DNA of 64,000 nt from sequence record PX104378.1; one strand, written 5' to 3'. Below, in pieces: positions 52,546-56,996 of the stretch. Below the pieces are notes generated by a model that was not told the DNA's origin, made no database searches, and saw only the letters and a list, made by a program, of their open reading frames with translations. Source of the DNA: a phage. The position numbers and the translations under genes are program-made. Position 1 is the first letter of the stretch. The number at the start of each line of letters is the position of its first letter.

Positions 52546-54789
52546 TTACAGCTTGCAAGATGAACATTCGCTAGCGTCTTCCGTACCATCAGCACCATCA
52601 CGCACGTTAGCGTAATACAGTGTCTTGAGGCCGTAATATTGAGCAAACAACATATCATCTAATACATCAGCAATATCGACTTTACCAGTCTTATAAGTGC
52701 TTGGATCGTAGGATGTATTGGAACTAATCGCCTGATCTACAAACTTCTGCATGATCGCTGCCAGTGTCAGATAAGGCTTGTTACCTTTCTTGATCAGTGT
52801 CCAAAGCAGGTCAATAACATCAGCATTATTCTCTACGTTCGGAATAACCTGATTAAATTGCCCTTCTTTCGATCCTTTAACCGATACAATCCCGCGAGGC
52901 GGTTCAATACCGTTTGTACTGTTAGACACCTGAGAAGACGACTCACAAGGCATCAGCGCCGAAAGCGTACTGTTACGAATGCCATATTTTTTCAGGTCTT
53001 CGCGCAGTTCTTCCCAATCCATCTCATACACCGGGTCAACCAGTTCATCTACTGTCTTTTTGTACCAGTCGATAGGCAGTTCACCGCGTCCATAACGTGT
53101 TTCGTGTATCAGTTCGCAAGCACCTTTCTCTTTAGCCAGTTGCACACTAGCCTTAATCAGAGCATATTGCAAGCGTTCAAACGTTTTATGCGTAAACTCG
53201 TTAGCGTCTTCATATGTGAAGAAATTATCCGCCAGATATGATGCAAAGTTAGTCACACCAACACCCAGAGAGCGACGTTTTTTGGCTGTCAGAGCTTGTT
53301 CTACAGGATAATCCTGATAATCTAACAGGTTGTCAAGTGCACGCACCATAACCATAGCGATCCGCTCTACTTCTTCCATATTTTCGATATCGAAATTACC
53401 TAAAACATATGCTGCCAAAGTACATAGGCTGATCTCTGAATCATCACGACCCATCGGTTTTGTCGGCAGAGCAATTTCACAACACAGGTTAGATTGTTTA
53501 ATCGGTGCTACATTACGAATAAACGCCCCGTGATTGTTCATGTTGTCTGTGAACGCTGGATAGATTCGACCAGTGTTAAAACGTTCAATTGCCACCGCTA
53601 AAAACAGGTCTTCGGCTTTAACACGAGTTTTACGAACACTCGGATCTTTTTCCAGTTTTTCGTAAAGCTGGCGGAAACCTTCCTCATCTCGGAAGTACAG
53701 ATCCCACAACAAGCCACCCGCAACATCTGGACTAAACAGAGTAATGTAATCCCGTTTAAGGAATCGCTCTACCATCAGGTTATTAATCTGTACGCCGTAG
53801 TCAAGATGGCGAATGCGGTTATCTTCCACGCCCTTATTGTTCTTTAACACAATCAGACTTTCAAACTCTAAATGCCACATTGGGTAATAGAGTGTCGCTG
53901 CCCCGCCACGAATACCGCCTTGTGAGCATGACTTAACGGCAGTCTGAAAATGTTTCCAGAATGGGATAACGCCAGTATGACGAACTTCACCATGCCCGAT
54001 CTTAGATCCTTCCGCGCGAATCATACCAGCATTGATACCGATGCCAGCACGCTTGCTAATATACTTGATGATTGCATTTGCGGTTTCATTAATACCCTGC
54101 AATGAATCATCAGATTCGATCACCACACACGAACTAAATTGTCGTGTTGGAGTACGCACACCAGCCATAATCGGAGTAGGCAGAGAGATTTGCTTATTCG
54201 CAACAGCATTATAAAAATCAATCACATGTTCAAGTCGATTTTCTGTCTCTTCTTGATGCAAGCACATACCGATCAGCATATACGCAAATTGCGGTGTTTC
54301 GATGATTTTCTTAGTGCTGCGATCCTGAACAAGATACTTCTCTTTTAACTGCATTGCACCCGCATAGGTCATTTTAAAATCAAGTTTATGGTCGATGAAT
54401 TTCTCCAGATATTCCACTTCTTCACGGGAATATTTTTGCAGAATTTCGCGATCATATTTTCCGGTTGCAATATTACGCTCAATATGGCTATAAAAATCAA
54501 TAGGTTGGAATTGACCGTATACTGATTTACGAAGTGCGAACATTGCAAGGTTACTTGCTACATATTGATAATCAGGTGTTTCTACAGTAATGTTATCTGC
54601 GGCGACCTTAATCAATACTTTCTGGATATCATTGGTAGACATACCTTCTGTCAGAAGTGGTTCAACCATATCAAACAATTCATATGGATCAACGTTATGA
54701 CCTTCGGCTGCCGCTTCCAGAATTTTCATTACTTTTTCTTTTTCAAACGGAACAGTCAGACCGGAAGACTTAACAACATTTTTAATCAT
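52546..54789 (-). CDS. nrdA: Ribonucleotide reductase alpha subunit
   Basis: 747 aa vs T4 NrdA 754 aa; ATP-cone N-terminus; C-terminal CSSCKL redox tail. Confidence 0.92.
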   Translation of the reverse strand: MIKNVVKSSGLTVPFEKEKVMKILEAAAEGHNVDPYELFDMVEPLLTEGMSTNDIQKVLIKVAADNITVETPDYQYVASNLAMFALRKSVYGQFQPIDFYSHIERNIATGKYDREILQKYSREEVEYLEKFIDHKLDFKMTYAGAMQLKEKYLVQDRSTKKIIETPQFAYMLIGMCLHQEETENRLEHVIDFYNAVANKQISLPTPIMAGVRTPTRQFSSCVVIESDDSLQGINETANAIIKYISKRAGIGINAGMIRAEGSKIGHGEVRHTGVIPFWKHFQTAVKSCSQGGIRGGAATLYYPMWHLEFESLIVLKNNKGVEDNRIRHLDYGVQINNLMVERFLKRDYITLFSPDVAGGLLWDLYFRDEEGFRQLYEKLEKDPSVRKTRVKAEDLFLAVAIERFNTGRIYPAFTDNMNNHGAFIRNVAPIKQSNLCCEIALPTKPMGRDDSEISLCTLAAYVLGNFDIENMEEVERIAMVMVRALDNLLDYQDYPVEQALTAKKRRSLGVGVTNFASYLADNFFTYEDANEFTHKTFERLQYALIKASVQLAKEKGACELIHETRYGRGELPIDWYKKTVDELVDPVYEMDWEELREDLKKYGIRNSTLSALMPCESSSQVSNSTNGIEPPRGIVSVKGSKEGQFNQVIPNVENNADVIDLLWTLIKKGNKPYLTLAAIMQKFVDQAISSNTSYDPSTYKTGKVDIADVLDDMLFAQYYGLKTLYYANVRDGADGTEDASECSSCKL

Positions 54790-54859
54790 ATTACCTCACT
54801 TCATATTTTAGCAGGAACAAGTTTATCCTCCATATTGGGGGGCTTTCGCCCCCTTTTGT

Positions 54860-56092
54860 TTATACTGCCATTTGAGCGGTGATTGCTGGATGGCTTTGAT
54901 AGTTGTGAATTTTAAAGTCTTTCGGAGTCTTTGTCAATACCTCATCTAAAGATTTAAATTCCGGCAACTCAATTGTTGGTTTATCAAACGGAACACGGCT
55001 TAACTGTTCAATAACTTGATCAAAATGGTTTTTGTAAATGTGAGTATCTCCACCAGAGAAAATCAGTTCTCCTACCTCAAGATCACACATTTTCGCTATG
55101 ATGTGAGTTAACAGCGCATAGCTGGCAACATTAAAGGGCAAGCCCAAAAAGCTGTCTACGCTTCGCTGAAACCACATACAAGACAGTTTACCTTCATTGA
55201 CATAGAATTGCACGAACGGATGACATACACCTAATACAGCATTATGTGTTCCTTGTACGTTCCATGAGTCAATAATGATCCGGCGATCCGTTGGATTGTT
55301 TTTAATTTGTTCAATCACGTTTTGTAATTGGTCTTCCCAAATCTTCGGGCGATAGACATATTCTTCATCGTCTTTAGTGCTCGATGTGTCTACGTCCATA
55401 CTAGCAAAAATCGTGGTATCTGGTGCTAAAATATCCCCACCCAGATAATCACTATCAAGTAGATAACCGAAATAACCATCATCTACCCATTCCTGGAATC
55501 CCCACAAGCAATATGCATCATTAACAAAATTAGATTGAGTCTTCCAGTGGTCTGCTACTAAGAATAGATTATATTCAGAATCAAACTCTTCATAACGCAT
55601 ACCACGCCAGATAGCACATAAACGGTCTTCTGTGTCGTTGGTTGGCGTAAAGTCTTCTACCCACGGGTGTTTAAATGTATGTGTATATTTGCTCTTAACG
55701 CGCTTAATTTTGATTTCACCGTGTGGGTGAATCGGTTTGCGTCGCCACGCCATACCATACATATTGCCGACATTATAACCATTGAATCGCAAAGGATTCT
55801 TTTCTTTCATATCAAGACAGTTGCCGCGCCAAATGTCGAAGGCTTCTTCGTCAAACTTACCGCGTGTAATTTCCTGTAAGCGACGGCGGTCAAGTGATCC
55901 CTCCATAAACCATATCAACTCGCCAATTACAGAGGCTGTAGCCATCTTTTTAGTGGTCAGTAAGGGGAAACCCTTTCTTAAATCAATTCGCATCTCTGCG
56001 CCGAATTTAGAGAGCGTACCTACCCCCGTGCGGTCTTCACGAGGCCAGCCATTATCAAGAACATCACGCAACAGTTTCAAATATTCTTTCAT
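54860..56092 (-). CDS. td: Thymidylate synthase with about 130-aa internal insertion
   Basis: 410 aa; TS motifs DRTGVGT, ELIWFMEG, RRIIIDSWN, VCHPFVQFYV, SVDSFLGLPFNVASYALL, GDTHIYKNH; insertion between MYGMAWRR and DQLQNVIEQ. Confidence 0.9.
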   Translation of the reverse strand: MKEYLKLLRDVLDNGWPREDRTGVGTLSKFGAEMRIDLRKGFPLLTTKKMATASVIGELIWFMEGSLDRRRLQEITRGKFDEEAFDIWRGNCLDMKEKNPLRFNGYNVGNMYGMAWRRKPIHPHGEIKIKRVKSKYTHTFKHPWVEDFTPTNDTEDRLCAIWRGMRYEEFDSEYNLFLVADHWKTQSNFVNDAYCLWGFQEWVDDGYFGYLLDSDYLGGDILAPDTTIFASMDVDTSSTKDDEEYVYRPKIWEDQLQNVIEQIKNNPTDRRIIIDSWNVQGTHNAVLGVCHPFVQFYVNEGKLSCMWFQRSVDSFLGLPFNVASYALLTHIIAKMCDLEVGELIFSGGDTHIYKNHFDQVIEQLSRVPFDKPTIELPEFKSLDEVLTKTPKDFKIHNYQSHPAITAQMAV

Positions 56093-56333
56093 CCCACATC
56101 ACCTTTTTCTTATTGATTGCTTTCTTACGCAGTTTTGCGACTGTCTCGTCAATATCGATAAAGACAACGCCAGGATCGAATACAGTAACAGGTCTTGAAA
56201 TGTCGCTATTTTCCTGTACTGGAAGCCATGACGCTTTAGCTTCATCATAGAGATATTGTAACCCGTAATAATCTACGGCTACTGCGTAGTTTTCACTGGT
56301 AGCTGACCATAATTGAATAATGGTTATTTTCAT
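56064..56333 (-). CDS. Hypothetical protein (frd.x-like position)
   Basis: Start trimmed to ATG (MKITIIQLW); overlaps td start by 29 nt. Confidence 0.45.
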   Translation of the reverse strand: MKITIIQLWSATSENYAVAVDYYGLQYLYDEAKASWLPVQENSDISRPVTVFDPGVVFIDIDETVAKLRKKAINKKKVMWDERIFETVA

Positions 56334-56425
56334 TATTGTTCCCGTCCACAATGTAAACACCGACTACCAGCAAACATCAAAGATTCACCACAATGTTTGC
56401 ACTCATAATCTGTCAGAATTTTCAT
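56333..56425 (-). CDS. Mini zinc-ribbon ORF (30 aa), not in ORF table
   Basis: MKILTDYECKHCGESLMFAGSRCLHCGREQ with two CxxC pairs; sits between frd stop and next ATG with 1-nt overlap. Confidence 0.35.
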   Translation of the reverse strand: MKILTDYECKHCGESLMFAGSRCLHCGREQ

Positions 56426-56426
56426 G

Positions 56427-56996
56427 TTACGCCTTCTTACGTTCCAAAATTTGCTCACTGATCAGGTAATTATCAAGGAAGTAATTATGTTCTTCTTTGG
56501 TTACAAAGTCAAAATATAATTCCTGAATCATTTCCTTAGAGATACCAACATCATATTCAAATGGATCGTTGATTCCTGAACGTTGAACATACGTTAACAC
56601 AATACGGTCCGAAAAGTCAACCGCTTTTTCAATCAGGGAAGGTCCACCGATAACACTTACCAAACCTTGCGTTTTCTCCAGGACTTTTAACAGATCCTTT
56701 AATTCAATTCCAGTATACACATCTGGTTGGTCGCCGTTTTTGGCTTTCGGTGTCGGCTTGCTGGCATCGGTACTAATAACCACATTCACACGACCTTCCA
56801 GTGCTTTAGGAAGACTTTCAAAGGTATTACGTCCCATTACAACCGCCGCAAGACCAACATCTCCCATAGTGCGCATTTTAAAGTTTTCCATATCTTTTTT
56901 GATTGGACGACCCCACGGTAAACCGCCTTTAAAACCAAACGCCCAATTTTCATCTGACATTTTAGTGTCACCAATCGCAAATACACATTGAATCAT
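56427..56996 (-). CDS. frd: Dihydrofolate reductase
   Basis: 189 aa vs T4 Frd 193 aa; DHFR hallmarks LPW, VVMGRNTFESLP, VIGGPSL. Confidence 0.9.
   Translation of the reverse strand: MIQCVFAIGDTKMSDENWAFGFKGGLPWGRPIKKDMENFKMRTMGDVGLAAVVMGRNTFESLPKALEGRVNVVISTDASKPTPKAKNGDQPDVYTGIELKDLLKVLEKTQGLVSVIGGPSLIEKAVDFSDRIVLTYVQRSGINDPFEYDVGISKEMIQELYFDFVTKEEHNYFLDNYLISEQILERKKA

What the first reader, a model, noticed from the sequence alone, without database searches (positions are those of the whole stretch)
54860..56092. Thymidylate synthase carrying an about 130-aa insertion in the small-domain loop
The td product is 410 aa, versus about 286 aa for T4 TS as recalled. All core TS motifs are intact, and the extra sequence sits in one block between MYGMAWRR and DQLQNVIEQIKNNPTDRR, the position where some thymidylate synthases carry a shorter insert. 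The insert is rich in aromatic and acidic residues and lacks intein boundary residues, so it is probably a structural domain, possibly for protein-protein contacts.
Basis: partly seen in the sequence, partly recalled or inferred. Interest (0 to 1): 0.35.

Follow-up and report, generated by a model that had tools for sequence, protein, structure and literature searches.

The report
Endonuclease relic inside phage thymidylate synthase
The extra 135 amino acids in this phage's thymidylate synthase are the folded but inactivated remnant of a selfish DNA-cutting gene (a homing endonuclease) that entered the enzyme in frame, apparently without any splicing; complete versions sit at the same spot in the same enzyme of many other phages.

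Summary
ORF 54860-56092 (-) encodes a 410-aa thymidylate synthase (TS) with all catalytic residues. One block (aa 119-253) interrupts the small-domain hairpin. The window is a Krischvirus (RB49-like), and all 59 sequenced relatives carry the block.

The block is not an intein, an intron or an artefact. It is homologous to the atypical HNH-like domain of free-standing phage homing endonucleases, the 'IPA-HNH' family of Vibrio phage ICP1 (hhalign 98%, E 3e-13; HMM E 1.4e-8). At least 99 TS proteins or 50%-identity cluster representatives carry an insert at the same site. Most inserts are 225-290 aa and keep the family's invariant motifs.

One TS with a long insert is 92% identical in its core to a TS with only a 26-aa loop there. 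That points to insert mobility.

The Krischvirus version is a deletion derivative. It has lost two flanking sub-domains and all invariant motifs (D-K-D reads D-S-D) and has turned acidic (pI 4.8). It still folds confidently (pLDDT about 92) on a two-strand stalk and evolves under purifying selection (dN/dS about 0.13-0.3).

Most likely it is a nuclease-dead relic kept as a tolerated appendage. Whether it has gained a new role is untested.

The parts
54860..56092 (-). td gene, a 410-aa thymidylate synthase (47.8 kDa; 31.6 kDa without the insert)
   Evidence: ORF. Pfam PF00303 E 4e-84. AlphaFold model pLDDT 93.5, pTM 0.92. Foldseek against E. coli TS gives TM 0.93 normalised to the target. Masses.
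55739..56092 (-). TS core, N-terminal part (aa 1-118), ending in MYGMAWRR
   Evidence: Aligns to E. coli TS residues 1-100. R21, E58, W80 and Y94 are kept.
55334..55738 (-). In-frame insert (aa 119-253), a decayed IPA-HNH-type homing-endonuclease module
   Evidence: tblastn to the long inserts in the TS of phiKp_21 (E 1e-11) and Vibrio phage D69 (E 7e-6). hhalign of the short-insert profile against the free-standing family gives 98%, E 3e-13. An HMM of the free-standing family hits only this ORF in the window, E 1.4e-8. dN/dS is 0.13-0.3 in most comparisons (range 0.05-0.62, small counts).
55703..55738 (-). Ascending stalk strand (aa 119-130, KPIHPHGEIKIK)
   Evidence: The model has a strand at 118-130. 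This segment is conserved in all TS with inserts, as PHGxxxIxRK.
55481..55636 (-). Helical core of the module (aa 153-204), including RLCAIWRGM and DAYCLWGFQEWVD
   Evidence: Helices at 153-169, 181-193 and 199-204. It aligns to the W..ML.RCY ... RW..FQNF..D region of the free-standing family. W, W and F are kept, while R, C and Y are lost.
55568..55579 (-). Four-codon indel (SEYN, aa 172-175) inside the least confident loop of the insert
   Evidence: Absent from JSE, JK32, phiS and GEC-3S. pLDDT dips to about 74 here.
55403..55462 (-). Degenerate beta-hairpin matching the family's L-D-K-D ... YS..TC.F motif. Here it reads LLDSDY ... ILAPDTTIF.
   Evidence: Strands at 210-213 and 228-231. In the alignment K is replaced by S, Y-S by L-A, C by T, and the following N by D. 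None of the 8 short inserts keeps these motifs, against 78 of 81 long inserts.
55334..55402 (-). Acidic linker (SMDVDTSSTKDDEE) and descending stalk strand (YVYRPKIWE, aa 245-253)
   Evidence: The model has a strand at 245-254. RPxI(Y/W)xDQ is conserved in nearly all TS with inserts.
54860..55333 (-). TS core, C-terminal part (aa 254-410 plus stop), with R270/R271, the catalytic C290 and the rest of the active site
   Evidence: Aligns to E. coli TS 110-264, E 1e-47. Residues checked.

Best explanation
The block is the in-frame relic of a homing endonuclease of the ICP1-type atypical-HNH ('IPA-HNH') family. That endonuclease invaded the tip of a surface beta-hairpin in the small domain of phage thymidylate synthase. 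In its complete form (225-290 aa in many other phage TS) the insert has three parts: an N-terminal beta-domain, the HNH-like core with an invariant D-K-D motif, and a C-terminal segment. It is basic, and it is present or absent among nearly identical td genes. This suggests (inference) that it spreads by cutting insert-free td alleles during co-infection and being copied in during repair. It needs no intron or intein because the hairpin tolerates an extra domain. In the Krischvirus lineage the element became fixed and then decayed by in-frame deletions. Both flanking sub-domains and an internal loop are gone, every invariant residue thought to serve catalysis or DNA contact is replaced, and the domain has turned acidic. 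It is therefore very unlikely to cut or bind DNA. What remains is translated as part of the mature 47.8-kDa enzyme. It is a compact helical domain held away from an unaltered TS core on a two-strand stalk. Purifying selection keeps it foldable, probably so that TS stays functional. Its presence also disrupts the ancestral target site, which could protect td from related active endonucleases (inference). Shown here: homology, architecture, decay, fixation, purifying selection, an intact TS core, and the insert polymorphism in relatives. Inferred: nuclease activity and homing of the long forms, absence of splicing, and the lack or nature of a present-day function.
For: Homology: tblastn of the insert hits the larger inserts at the same TS site in phiKp_21 (E 1e-11) and Vibrio phage D69. 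Those inserts hit the PHROG 'HNH endonuclease' families phrog_2081 (E 1.7e-33), phrog_953 and phrog_374. hhalign of Krischvirus-type inserts against free-standing proteins gives 98%, E 3e-13, and all inserts against free-standing proteins give E 8.5e-46. An HMM built from free-standing proteins finds only td in the window, E 1.4e-8. Foldseek on BFVD matches a TS with an insert and phage proteins named homing endonucleases.
Family identity: the relatives include the ICP1 gene beside the DNA polymerase gene and multiple genes in Pseudomonas phage KIL1 (5 matching places), while the paper reports the family as abundant in the Pseudomonas-infecting Flaumdraviruses. This matches the IPA-HNH family of PMC10448857. 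Ten of 38 free-standing members carry the I-HmuI NUMOD-like DNA-binding domain.
Spread: the profile finds 12,320 cluster representatives, and 74 of the top 146 are TS with the insert at the same site.
Mobility: the P0024 core is 92% identical to P0081 (26-aa loop) and 90% to P0097 (3-aa loop), but only 83% to the other insert carrier, P0025. Exon DNA next to the site is 88-95% identical to the empty alleles and 61-71% to the other carrier.
Decay: none of the 8 short inserts keeps the D-K-D, W..M..R, YS..C or GxGY motifs, against 78, 72, 67 and 52 of 81 long inserts. Insert pI is 4.8 here, 8.3-9.6 in most long inserts, and a median of 9.1 in free-standing proteins. Short forms arose at least twice, because P0009 and P0013 nest among long-insert TS.
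Folded and selected: pLDDT is 93.5 for the whole protein and 92.3 for the insert alone. dN/dS is about 0.13-0.3. The TS core matches E. coli TS at TM 0.93 and the catalytic residues are intact.
Not spliced or hidden: no Rfam hit, no Hint domain or intein boundaries, and no alternative-frame ORF longer than 41 aa on the coding strand.
Against: No experiment shows that any member of this HNH-like family cuts DNA. The invariant motif is D-K-D rather than the canonical His, and Pfam HNH models do not match. Foldseek found no solved structure resembling the insert, best E = 2. The presence/absence pattern could in principle come from repeated precise deletions rather than homing. The short form has kept its size (125-143 aa) and a nearly invariant DAYCLWGFQEWVD patch across TS whose cores are only 63-67% identical. 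That is more conservation than a purely inert passenger would be expected to show, and it hints at a retained or new role. The dN/dS values rest on few substitutions (1-13 per class). Translation of the insert into the mature protein is inferred, not observed.
Confidence: 0.72

Rival explanations
1. Exapted domain. Whatever its origin, the insert now does a job for the phage, for example docking TS to partners of the deoxynucleotide-synthesising complex or the replisome, or acting as an acidic decoy. This reading accepts the endonuclease origin and differs only on present function.
For: Purifying selection acts on the insert. The short form keeps its size and a nearly invariant LWGFQEWVD patch across TS whose cores are only 63-67% identical. 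It is fixed in 59 of 59 Krischvirus genomes. The shift to a strongly acidic surface could be adaptive. From established knowledge, T4 TS belongs to a multi-enzyme dNTP synthetase complex.
Against: No partner, interface or phenotype is known. The conserved patch is largely hydrophobic and may simply be the domain core. dN/dS in the insert is higher than in the core among the closest relatives (0.13-0.3 against 0.01-0.08). TS works without any insert in close relatives of the long-insert forms.
Confidence: 0.3
2. The insert is still an active homing endonuclease or a sequence-specific DNA-binding module, used for example for homing or for autoregulation of td.
For: It is homologous to a family annotated as homing endonucleases. 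A mosaic tract in JSE and GEC-3S begins exactly at the 3' junction of the insert.
Against: All family-invariant polar residues are replaced: R, K of D-K-D, Y, C and N. Both flanking sub-domains are deleted. Net charge is -11 and pI 4.8. No empty td allele exists among relatives for it to home into.
Confidence: 0.04
3. The insert is removed before the enzyme matures (an intein, a group I or II intron, or a ShiLan-type element with a hidden out-of-frame endonuclease), or it is an annotation or assembly artefact.
For: td is a classic target of splicing elements, such as the T4 td intron with I-TevI (PMC2988022). In-frame insertions with a hidden HNH exist (PMC11855218).
Against: There is no Rfam match at E up to 1. 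There is no Hint domain, no Cys/Ser/Thr at the N-terminal junction and no His-Asn plus nucleophile at the C-terminal junction (sequence). Selection acts at the codon level within the insert. The endonuclease homology lies in the TS reading frame. The longest alternative-frame ORF on the coding strand is 41 aa. The model joins both ends of the insert into one hairpin continuous with the TS fold at high confidence. Fifty-nine independent genomes agree.
Confidence: 0.02
4. Reverse direction: the domain is an old accessory domain of phage TS, and the free-standing 'endonuclease' genes captured it from TS.
For: The NJ tree of TS cores shows TS with inserts as a broad, deep grade.
Against: The family has 12,320 cluster representatives and occurs in many other architectures and gene neighbourhoods. 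Within one TS clade whose cores are 85-92% identical, the site holds 3, 26 or about 280 residues. Short forms are clearly derived from long ones by deletion.
Confidence: 0.04

Closest known systems
IPA-HNH homing endonuclease genes (ICP1 gp59/gp115/gp209 family; Barth, Dunham and Seed 2023, PMC10448857)
   Same: The insert is homologous to the atypical HNH-like N-terminal module of this family. Like these genes, the TS inserts sit in or beside essential DNA-metabolism genes.
   Different: IPA-HNH genes are free-standing ORFs with a C-terminal AP2 (or, in our set, I-HmuI NUMOD-like) DNA-binding domain. Here the module is fused in frame inside an enzyme. In this window it has also lost the invariant residues, the flanking sub-domains and its basic charge. 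That paper states that T4 has no IPA-HNH genes and does not mention TS.
ShiLan domain in mycobacteriophage DNA methylases (Arsenault, Gosselin and Gogarten 2025, PMC11855218)
   Same: It is an insertion that stays in frame with its host gene, is neither intein nor intron, is predicted to loop out of the host protein, and is linked to an HNH endonuclease.
   Different: In ShiLan the HNH endonuclease is encoded in another reading frame, and the in-frame product is a featureless hairpin. Here the endonuclease homology is in the host frame, so the module is part of the host protein. The host is TS, not a methylase.
Inteins carrying homing endonucleases (for example PI-SceI, and the ICP1 NrdA LAGLIDADG intein)
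   Same: An in-frame selfish insertion in a conserved enzyme of nucleotide or DNA metabolism. It follows the same life cycle of invasion, fixation, endonuclease decay and reduction to mini-forms.
   Different: There is no Hint splicing domain and there are no splice-junction residues. The insert is predicted to remain in the mature enzyme.
T4 td group I intron with I-TevI
   Same: The host gene (td) is the same, as is the logic of a selfish endonuclease hiding in an essential gene (PMC2988022).
   Different: That element is an RNA-splicing intron with a GIY-YIG endonuclease at another position in td. The window's td has no intron.
Lineage-specific small-domain inserts of TS (about 50 aa in Lactobacillus casei TS; the two short eukaryotic inserts; T4 TS inserts)
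   Same: The extra sequence lies in the variable small domain and does not disturb the catalytic core. The site equals the loop between E. coli W101 and D110, which I recall to be the site of the second eukaryotic insert (alignment; site equivalence from memory).
   Different: Those inserts are short, have no independent fold and no relatives outside TS. This one is an autonomous domain with thousands of homologues in mobile endonuclease genes. The L. casei insert lies about 12 residues upstream (from memory, not tested).

Membership tests
Thymidylate synthase ThyA (Pfam PF00303) | Sequence match above the curated threshold over the whole fold | tested here: met
   282 bits against a cut-off of 24.3, in two stretches covering the profile up to position 266. 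PDB TS sequences match at E 1e-68.
Thymidylate synthase ThyA (Pfam PF00303) | Catalytic Cys and the dUMP/folate-binding residues (E. coli R21, E58, W80, Y94, R126', R127', C146, H147, Q165, R166, S167, D169, N177, H207, Y209) | tested here: met
   All are conserved in the alignment. Only W83 differs, reading N.
Thymidylate synthase ThyA (Pfam PF00303) | TS fold | tested here: met
   AlphaFold model with pLDDT 93.5. Foldseek TM 0.93 (normalised to the target) against E. coli TS.
Thymidylate synthase ThyA (Pfam PF00303) | Enzymatic conversion of dUMP to dTMP | not testable with these tools
   Requires an enzyme assay.
IPA-HNH homing endonucleases (PMC10448857) | Homology to the atypical HNH-like module | tested here: met
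   hhalign 98%, E 3e-13 over 96 columns. HMM of free-standing members against the window, E 1.4e-8.
IPA-HNH homing endonucleases (PMC10448857) | Family-invariant residues (W, R, W, F, D-K-D, Y, C; nearly invariant C, Y, Y, V, N) | tested here: not met
   Only W, W, F and the two Asp remain. R, K, Y, C and N are replaced. None of the 8 short inserts keeps the motifs.
IPA-HNH homing endonucleases (PMC10448857) | Attached DNA-binding domain (AP2, or NUMOD-like in our sample) | tested here: not met
   No Pfam hit in the insert at E up to 10. The C-terminal segment present in long inserts is deleted here. Ten of 38 free-standing relatives carry PF22083.
IPA-HNH homing endonucleases (PMC10448857) | Free-standing gene with variable presence among close relatives | tested here: not met
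   It is embedded in td and present in 59 of 59 Krischvirus records. Variable presence is seen only for long inserts in another TS clade.
IPA-HNH homing endonucleases (PMC10448857) | Site-specific DNA cleavage and homing | not testable with these tools
   Needs nuclease assays and mixed infections. According to PMC10448857 this has not been shown experimentally for ICP1's putative HEGs.
Canonical HNH / His-Me finger nucleases | Match to an HNH model or structure, with the catalytic His | tested here: not met
   No Pfam HNH hit for the insert, the long inserts or the free-standing relatives. Foldseek on PDB gives best E = 2. The motif position holds K in the family and S here.
Intein | Hint domain and junction residues (N-terminal Cys/Ser; C-terminal His-Asn followed by Cys/Ser/Thr) | tested here: not met
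   The junctions read WRR|KPIHP and KIWE|DQLQ. There is no Hint-family Pfam hit.
Group I / II intron | Ribozyme structure, with the interruption removed from the mRNA | tested here: not met
   No Rfam match at E up to 1 in 54500-56500. The frame stays open and dN/dS is well below 1 inside the block. Splicing itself was not assayed.
ShiLan-type insertion (hidden out-of-frame HNH) | Endonuclease ORF in an alternative frame of the insertion | tested here: not met
   The longest alternative-frame ORF on the coding strand within the insert is 41 aa (55657-55782). The endonuclease homology is in the TS frame.

The most novel reading that the evidence does not exclude
Phage thymidylate synthases host a so far undescribed way of life for homing endonucleases. 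The endonuclease is expressed as an internal domain of the mature, dimeric host enzyme, with no intron, intein or separate ORF, and homes into insert-free td alleles. The Krischvirus block would be the end state of that cycle. It would be kept not as junk but because it now serves the phage, either by shielding td from cleavage by active relatives in co-infections or as a docking surface in the nucleotide-synthesis complex.
Probability: 0.3. Interest if true: 0.8.

Novelty: new variant of a known kind. Interest (0 to 1): 0.6.

Why it matters
Homing endonucleases are thought to persist in essential genes only by hiding in self-splicing introns or inteins, or by sitting beside genes. Here an endonuclease-type module lies in frame inside an essential enzyme with no splicing apparatus. 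It occurs in many phage lineages, and every stage from full-length to relic to short loop is visible at one site. If the long forms are active, this adds a further way of life for these selfish genes. It would also give a natural example of an enzyme that tolerates a 130-290-aa domain at one hairpin, which is useful for domain-insertion engineering of TS. It would show as well how new protein domains can enter enzymes through selfish DNA. For annotation, it explains why some phage TS genes are labelled 'HNH endonuclease' or 'hypothetical protein'. In the papers I could search, no one has commented on the extra length of the RB49-type td.

Tried and rejected
1. Word-indexed protein search with the insert alone found nothing. 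With the insert alignment it returned only the short-insert TS. The full-protein search and the exhaustive profile search were the informative ones.
2. Pfam scans of the insert, the long inserts and three free-standing relatives gave no meaningful hit. Ten longer non-TS relatives also gave nothing, so their other domains remain unidentified.
3. Foldseek of the insert model against the PDB gave no match, best E = 2. The claim of an HNH fold therefore rests on the HHsearch result reported in PMC10448857, not on my data.
4. A profile of free-standing relatives against PDB sequences gave only a weak hit (E 0.27) to the C-terminal DNA-binding region of I-HmuI. This region is absent from the window's insert.
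5. Intron hypothesis: no Rfam hit.
6. Hidden-frame endonuclease, as in ShiLan: no ORF.
7. Recent acquisition: rejected, because the insert's G+C (40.7%) and GC3 equal those of the gene and the window.
8. Other copies of the module in the 64-kb window: none.
9. Internal promoter or terminator signals in td: counts are at chance level for promoters, with nothing specific to the insert.
10. Literature searches for TS plus RB49, insertion, HNH or in-frame found no description of this feature. The RB49 genome paper (PMC135041) is not held.
11. I did not confirm by accession that the ICP1 gene in L004 is gp59.
Full report
THE OBSERVATION

The minus-strand ORF 54860-56092 encodes 410 aa. It lies between a DHFR gene (56427-56996) and nrdA (52546-54789), the frd-td-nrdA order of T4-like phages. 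The Pfam thymidylate synthase model matches it in two pieces (E 4e-84), and the second piece is aa 254-410 = profile 110-266. Solved TS sequences match aa 1-82 and 254-410. Aligned with E. coli TS, the window has 134 residues where E. coli has 8, between W101 and D110. MYGMAWRR is aa 111-118, so the extra block is aa 119-253, window 55334-55738. All catalytic and substrate-binding residues that I checked are conserved. The block has pI 4.8, net charge -11 and 17% aromatic residues.

IS IT REAL?

The window is a Krischvirus (RB49-like, 98% nucleotide identity). All 59 matching phage records contain the full-length gene, and the insert alone is found at 90% or more protein identity in 59 records. 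No RNA family matches the region at E up to 1, so there is no recognisable group I or II intron. There is no Hint domain, and the junctions (WRR|KPIHP, KIWE|DQLQ) lack intein residues. Seven Krischvirus td genes give dN/dS of about 0.13-0.3 inside the insert in most comparisons. Counts are small, and the full range is 0.05-0.62. The block is therefore translated in this frame and is under purifying selection. Selection on it is somewhat weaker than on the core among the closest relatives (0.01-0.08). Its G+C content equals that of the gene and the window, so it was not acquired recently.

STRUCTURE

AlphaFold2 with a 38-sequence alignment gives pLDDT 93.5 and pTM 0.92 for the whole protein. 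The insert alone gives pLDDT 92.3. Strands 118-130 and 245-254 form a long two-strand stalk that extends the native hairpin. The stalk carries helices 153-169, 181-193 and 199-204 and a small hairpin (210-213, 228-231). The only soft spot (pLDDT about 74) is the loop where some relatives lack four residues, SEYN. The full model superposes on E. coli TS with TM 0.93 normalised to the target, so the core is undisturbed. The isolated insert resembles no solved structure, best Foldseek E = 2. Among predicted viral structures it matches a 564-aa TS with an insert and phage proteins named HNH or HTH homing endonucleases (E 1.7e-5 and weaker).

WHAT THE INSERT IS RELATED TO

tblastn with the insert alone hit two more distant TS genes that carry larger inserts at the same place: Klebsiella phage phiKp_21 (517 aa, E 1e-11) and Vibrio phage D69 (477 aa, annotated 'HNH endonuclease', E 7e-6). 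Those larger inserts match PHROG families annotated as HNH endonucleases: phrog_2081 at E 1.7e-33, plus phrog_953 and phrog_374. The core of the phiKp_21 insert finds 1,963 places in 1,369 phage genomes. Most are free-standing genes called HNH endonuclease or HTH homing endonuclease, often beside DNA polymerase or terminase genes.

Among these relatives are the ICP1 gene directly downstream of the DNA polymerase gene and several genes of the Pseudomonas KIL phages. Barth, Dunham and Seed (PMC10448857) named exactly this group 'IPA-HNH' homing endonuclease genes. They describe an atypical HNH domain, detectable only by HHsearch, joined to an AP2 domain. The family is typified by ICP1 gp59, gp115 and gp209 and is abundant in Barbaviruses and Flaumdraviruses. 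I did not verify by accession that my ICP1 locus is gp59.

Three direct tests link the window to this family:
- A profile of the six Krischvirus-type short inserts against a profile of 38 free-standing proteins gives hhalign probability 98%, E 3e-13, over 96 columns.
- All inserts against the free-standing proteins give E 8.5e-46 over 156 columns.
- An HMM built only from free-standing proteins finds the td ORF, and nothing else, in a six-frame search of the window (E 1.4e-8).

Ten of the 38 free-standing proteins also carry the NUMOD-like DNA-binding domain of the HNH homing endonuclease I-HmuI.

HOW COMMON TS WITH THIS INSERT ARE

The full-protein search returned 25 TS of 401-613 aa with an insert at this site. 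An exhaustive profile search of 1.84 billion cluster representatives found 12,320 relatives of the module at E up to 1e-3. Of the best 146, 74 are TS interrupted at the same position (E. coli residues about 101-109), and 72 are not TS; 44 of those are small proteins of 169-310 aa. Sampled contexts are all phage-like: gp32, frd, td, nrdA and nrdB on a 169-kb contig; jumbo-phage-like contigs; and contigs with T4-type RNA ligases.

THE WINDOW'S INSERT IS A DELETION DERIVATIVE

In the alignment, long inserts (225-290 aa) have five successive parts:
- an ascending strand;
- a beta-rich sub-domain of about 65 aa ending in GVGYxG;
- the helical core (W..ML.R.Y ... RW..F.NF..D);
- a hairpin with L-D-K-D ... 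YS..TC.F ... N;
- a further segment of about 45-60 aa, followed by a descending strand (RPxIYxDQ).

The Krischvirus insert keeps the two stalk strands, the helical core and the hairpin. It lacks the beta sub-domain, an internal loop and the C-terminal segment.

The free-standing family has these invariant residues: W, R, W, F, D-K-D, Y and C. The window keeps only W, W, F and the two Asp. K is replaced by S, Y-S by L-A, C by T, and the nearly invariant N by D. Across 99 TS inserts, none of the 8 short ones keeps the D-K-D, W..M..R, YS..C or GxGY motifs, whereas 78, 72, 67 and 52 of the 81 long ones do. Long inserts are mostly basic (pI 8.3-9.6) and free-standing proteins have a median pI of 9.1, against 4.8 here.

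Short forms arose at least twice. P0009 and P0013 (about 143 aa) nest among long-insert TS of the phiKp_21 type (core 71.5% identical to P0012), apart from the Krischvirus group. Intermediate forms (174-207 aa) lack mainly the N-terminal beta sub-domain.

EVIDENCE THAT THE ELEMENT MOVES

P0024 has a 279-aa insert. Its TS core is 92% identical to P0081, which has a 26-aa loop at the site, and 90% identical to P0097, which has a 3-aa loop. It is only 83% identical to P0025, the other insert carrier in that clade. The genes lie in syntenic phage contigs. At the DNA level, the exon sequence next to the site is 88-95% identical between the carrier and the two empty alleles, but only 61-71% identical between the two carriers. 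Insert presence therefore does not follow the history of the gene. This is the classic signature of a homing element, although repeated precise loss cannot be formally excluded.

In the Krischvirus lineage no empty allele exists. The closest TS without an insert has a core only about 56% identical.

MECHANISM: SHOWN AND INFERRED

Shown:
- the homology, the position, the decay, the fixation and the purifying selection;
- the intact TS core;
- the absence of recognisable splicing signals;
- the insert polymorphism in relatives.

Inferred:
- The complete inserts are endonucleases expressed as an internal domain of TS. They cut insert-free td alleles in co-infected cells and are copied in by repair. 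The surface hairpin tolerates the extra domain, so no splicing is needed.
- The Krischvirus copy is a dead relic. It is retained because it must stay foldable for TS to work and because no empty allele is available to replace it. It may also persist because an interrupted target site cannot be cut by active relatives.

I put 0.72 on this package. The origin alone I would put near 0.9. The 'no present function' part is the weak link. The short form has kept its size and the DAYCLWGFQEWVD patch across TS with only 63-67% core identity.

COMPARISON WITH WHAT IS KNOWN

The closest family by descent is IPA-HNH. The window's insert fails its defining features apart from homology, so it is derived from that family rather than being a member.

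The closest analogue by arrangement is the ShiLan domain of mycobacteriophage methylases (PMC11855218). That is also an in-frame insertion that is neither intein nor intron. There, however, the HNH endonuclease is hidden in another reading frame, whereas here the homology lies in the host frame.

Inteins share the life cycle but not the splicing machinery. The T4 td intron with I-TevI shares the host gene but nothing else.

I found no paper describing a TS with this insertion. The searchable library lacks most subscription journals and the RB49 genome paper, so an earlier remark cannot be excluded.

VERDICT

The main new result is that the block is a nuclease-dead, in-frame relic of a homing endonuclease, and that this window shows one stage of a widespread, apparently undescribed association between IPA-HNH-type elements and phage thymidylate synthase. 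I rate it a new variant of a known kind, interest 0.6.

Noticed in passing
window 55015-55333 (td codons 254-360), compared with L006 (JSE) and L009 (GEC-3S): JSE and GEC-3S differ from the window at about 90 nucleotides confined to codons 256-360, but by only 0-7 differences per 15 codons elsewhere (at most 4 outside the SEYN-indel bin). This mosaic tract starts exactly at the 3' junction of the insert, and its protein sequence resembles P0003-P0005-type TS. It may be an old co-conversion or recombination boundary next to the endonuclease relic.
   Followed up: partly
P0028, P0081, P0050 and related 299-aa TS; loci L017, L018: Close relatives of the long-insert TS P0024 and P0025 carry a 26-31-aa loop at the same site, for example NKHIERKNFGPAHLGGDRLAVDQTEV. 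In MAFFT it lines up with three anchor pieces of the long insert (IERKTY, GVGYLGG, HVVRPxIYIDQ). It could be an extreme deletion remnant of the same element. The pieces are too short for statistics.
   Followed up: no
P0175, P0171, P0132, P0135, P0249, P0263, P0208, P0184 (TS cluster representatives): Several long-insert TS have a second extra segment of roughly 40-55 aa near E. coli TS residues 155-157, seen as a third break in the phmmer alignment to E. coli TS.
   Followed up: no
L002 2638-4071 (Vibrio phage D69); L001 2455-4008 (Klebsiella phage phiKp_21); Whisky, Cognac and Brandy records: TS genes carrying the insert are annotated 'HNH endonuclease' (D69) or 'hypothetical protein' (phiKp_21, Whisky, Cognac, Brandy). 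These are annotation errors caused by the embedded module.
   Followed up: yes
window 54837-54854: A G+C-rich hairpin (GGGGGGC-TTTC-GCCCCC) lies in the 70-nt spacer between the td stop codon and the nrdA start codon. The terminator scan reports it only in the plus-strand orientation, opposite to the genes.
   Followed up: no
window 56064-56360 (-): A 98-aa ORF (GTG start) between frd and td overlaps the td start by 29 nt. A 270-nt version is annotated as a hypothetical protein in every Krischvirus record inspected.
   Followed up: no
L011 1516-1605 (Shigella phage SSG23): SSG23 has an extra ORF of about 100 aa between td and nrdA that the other Krischvirus records inspected lack.
   Followed up: no
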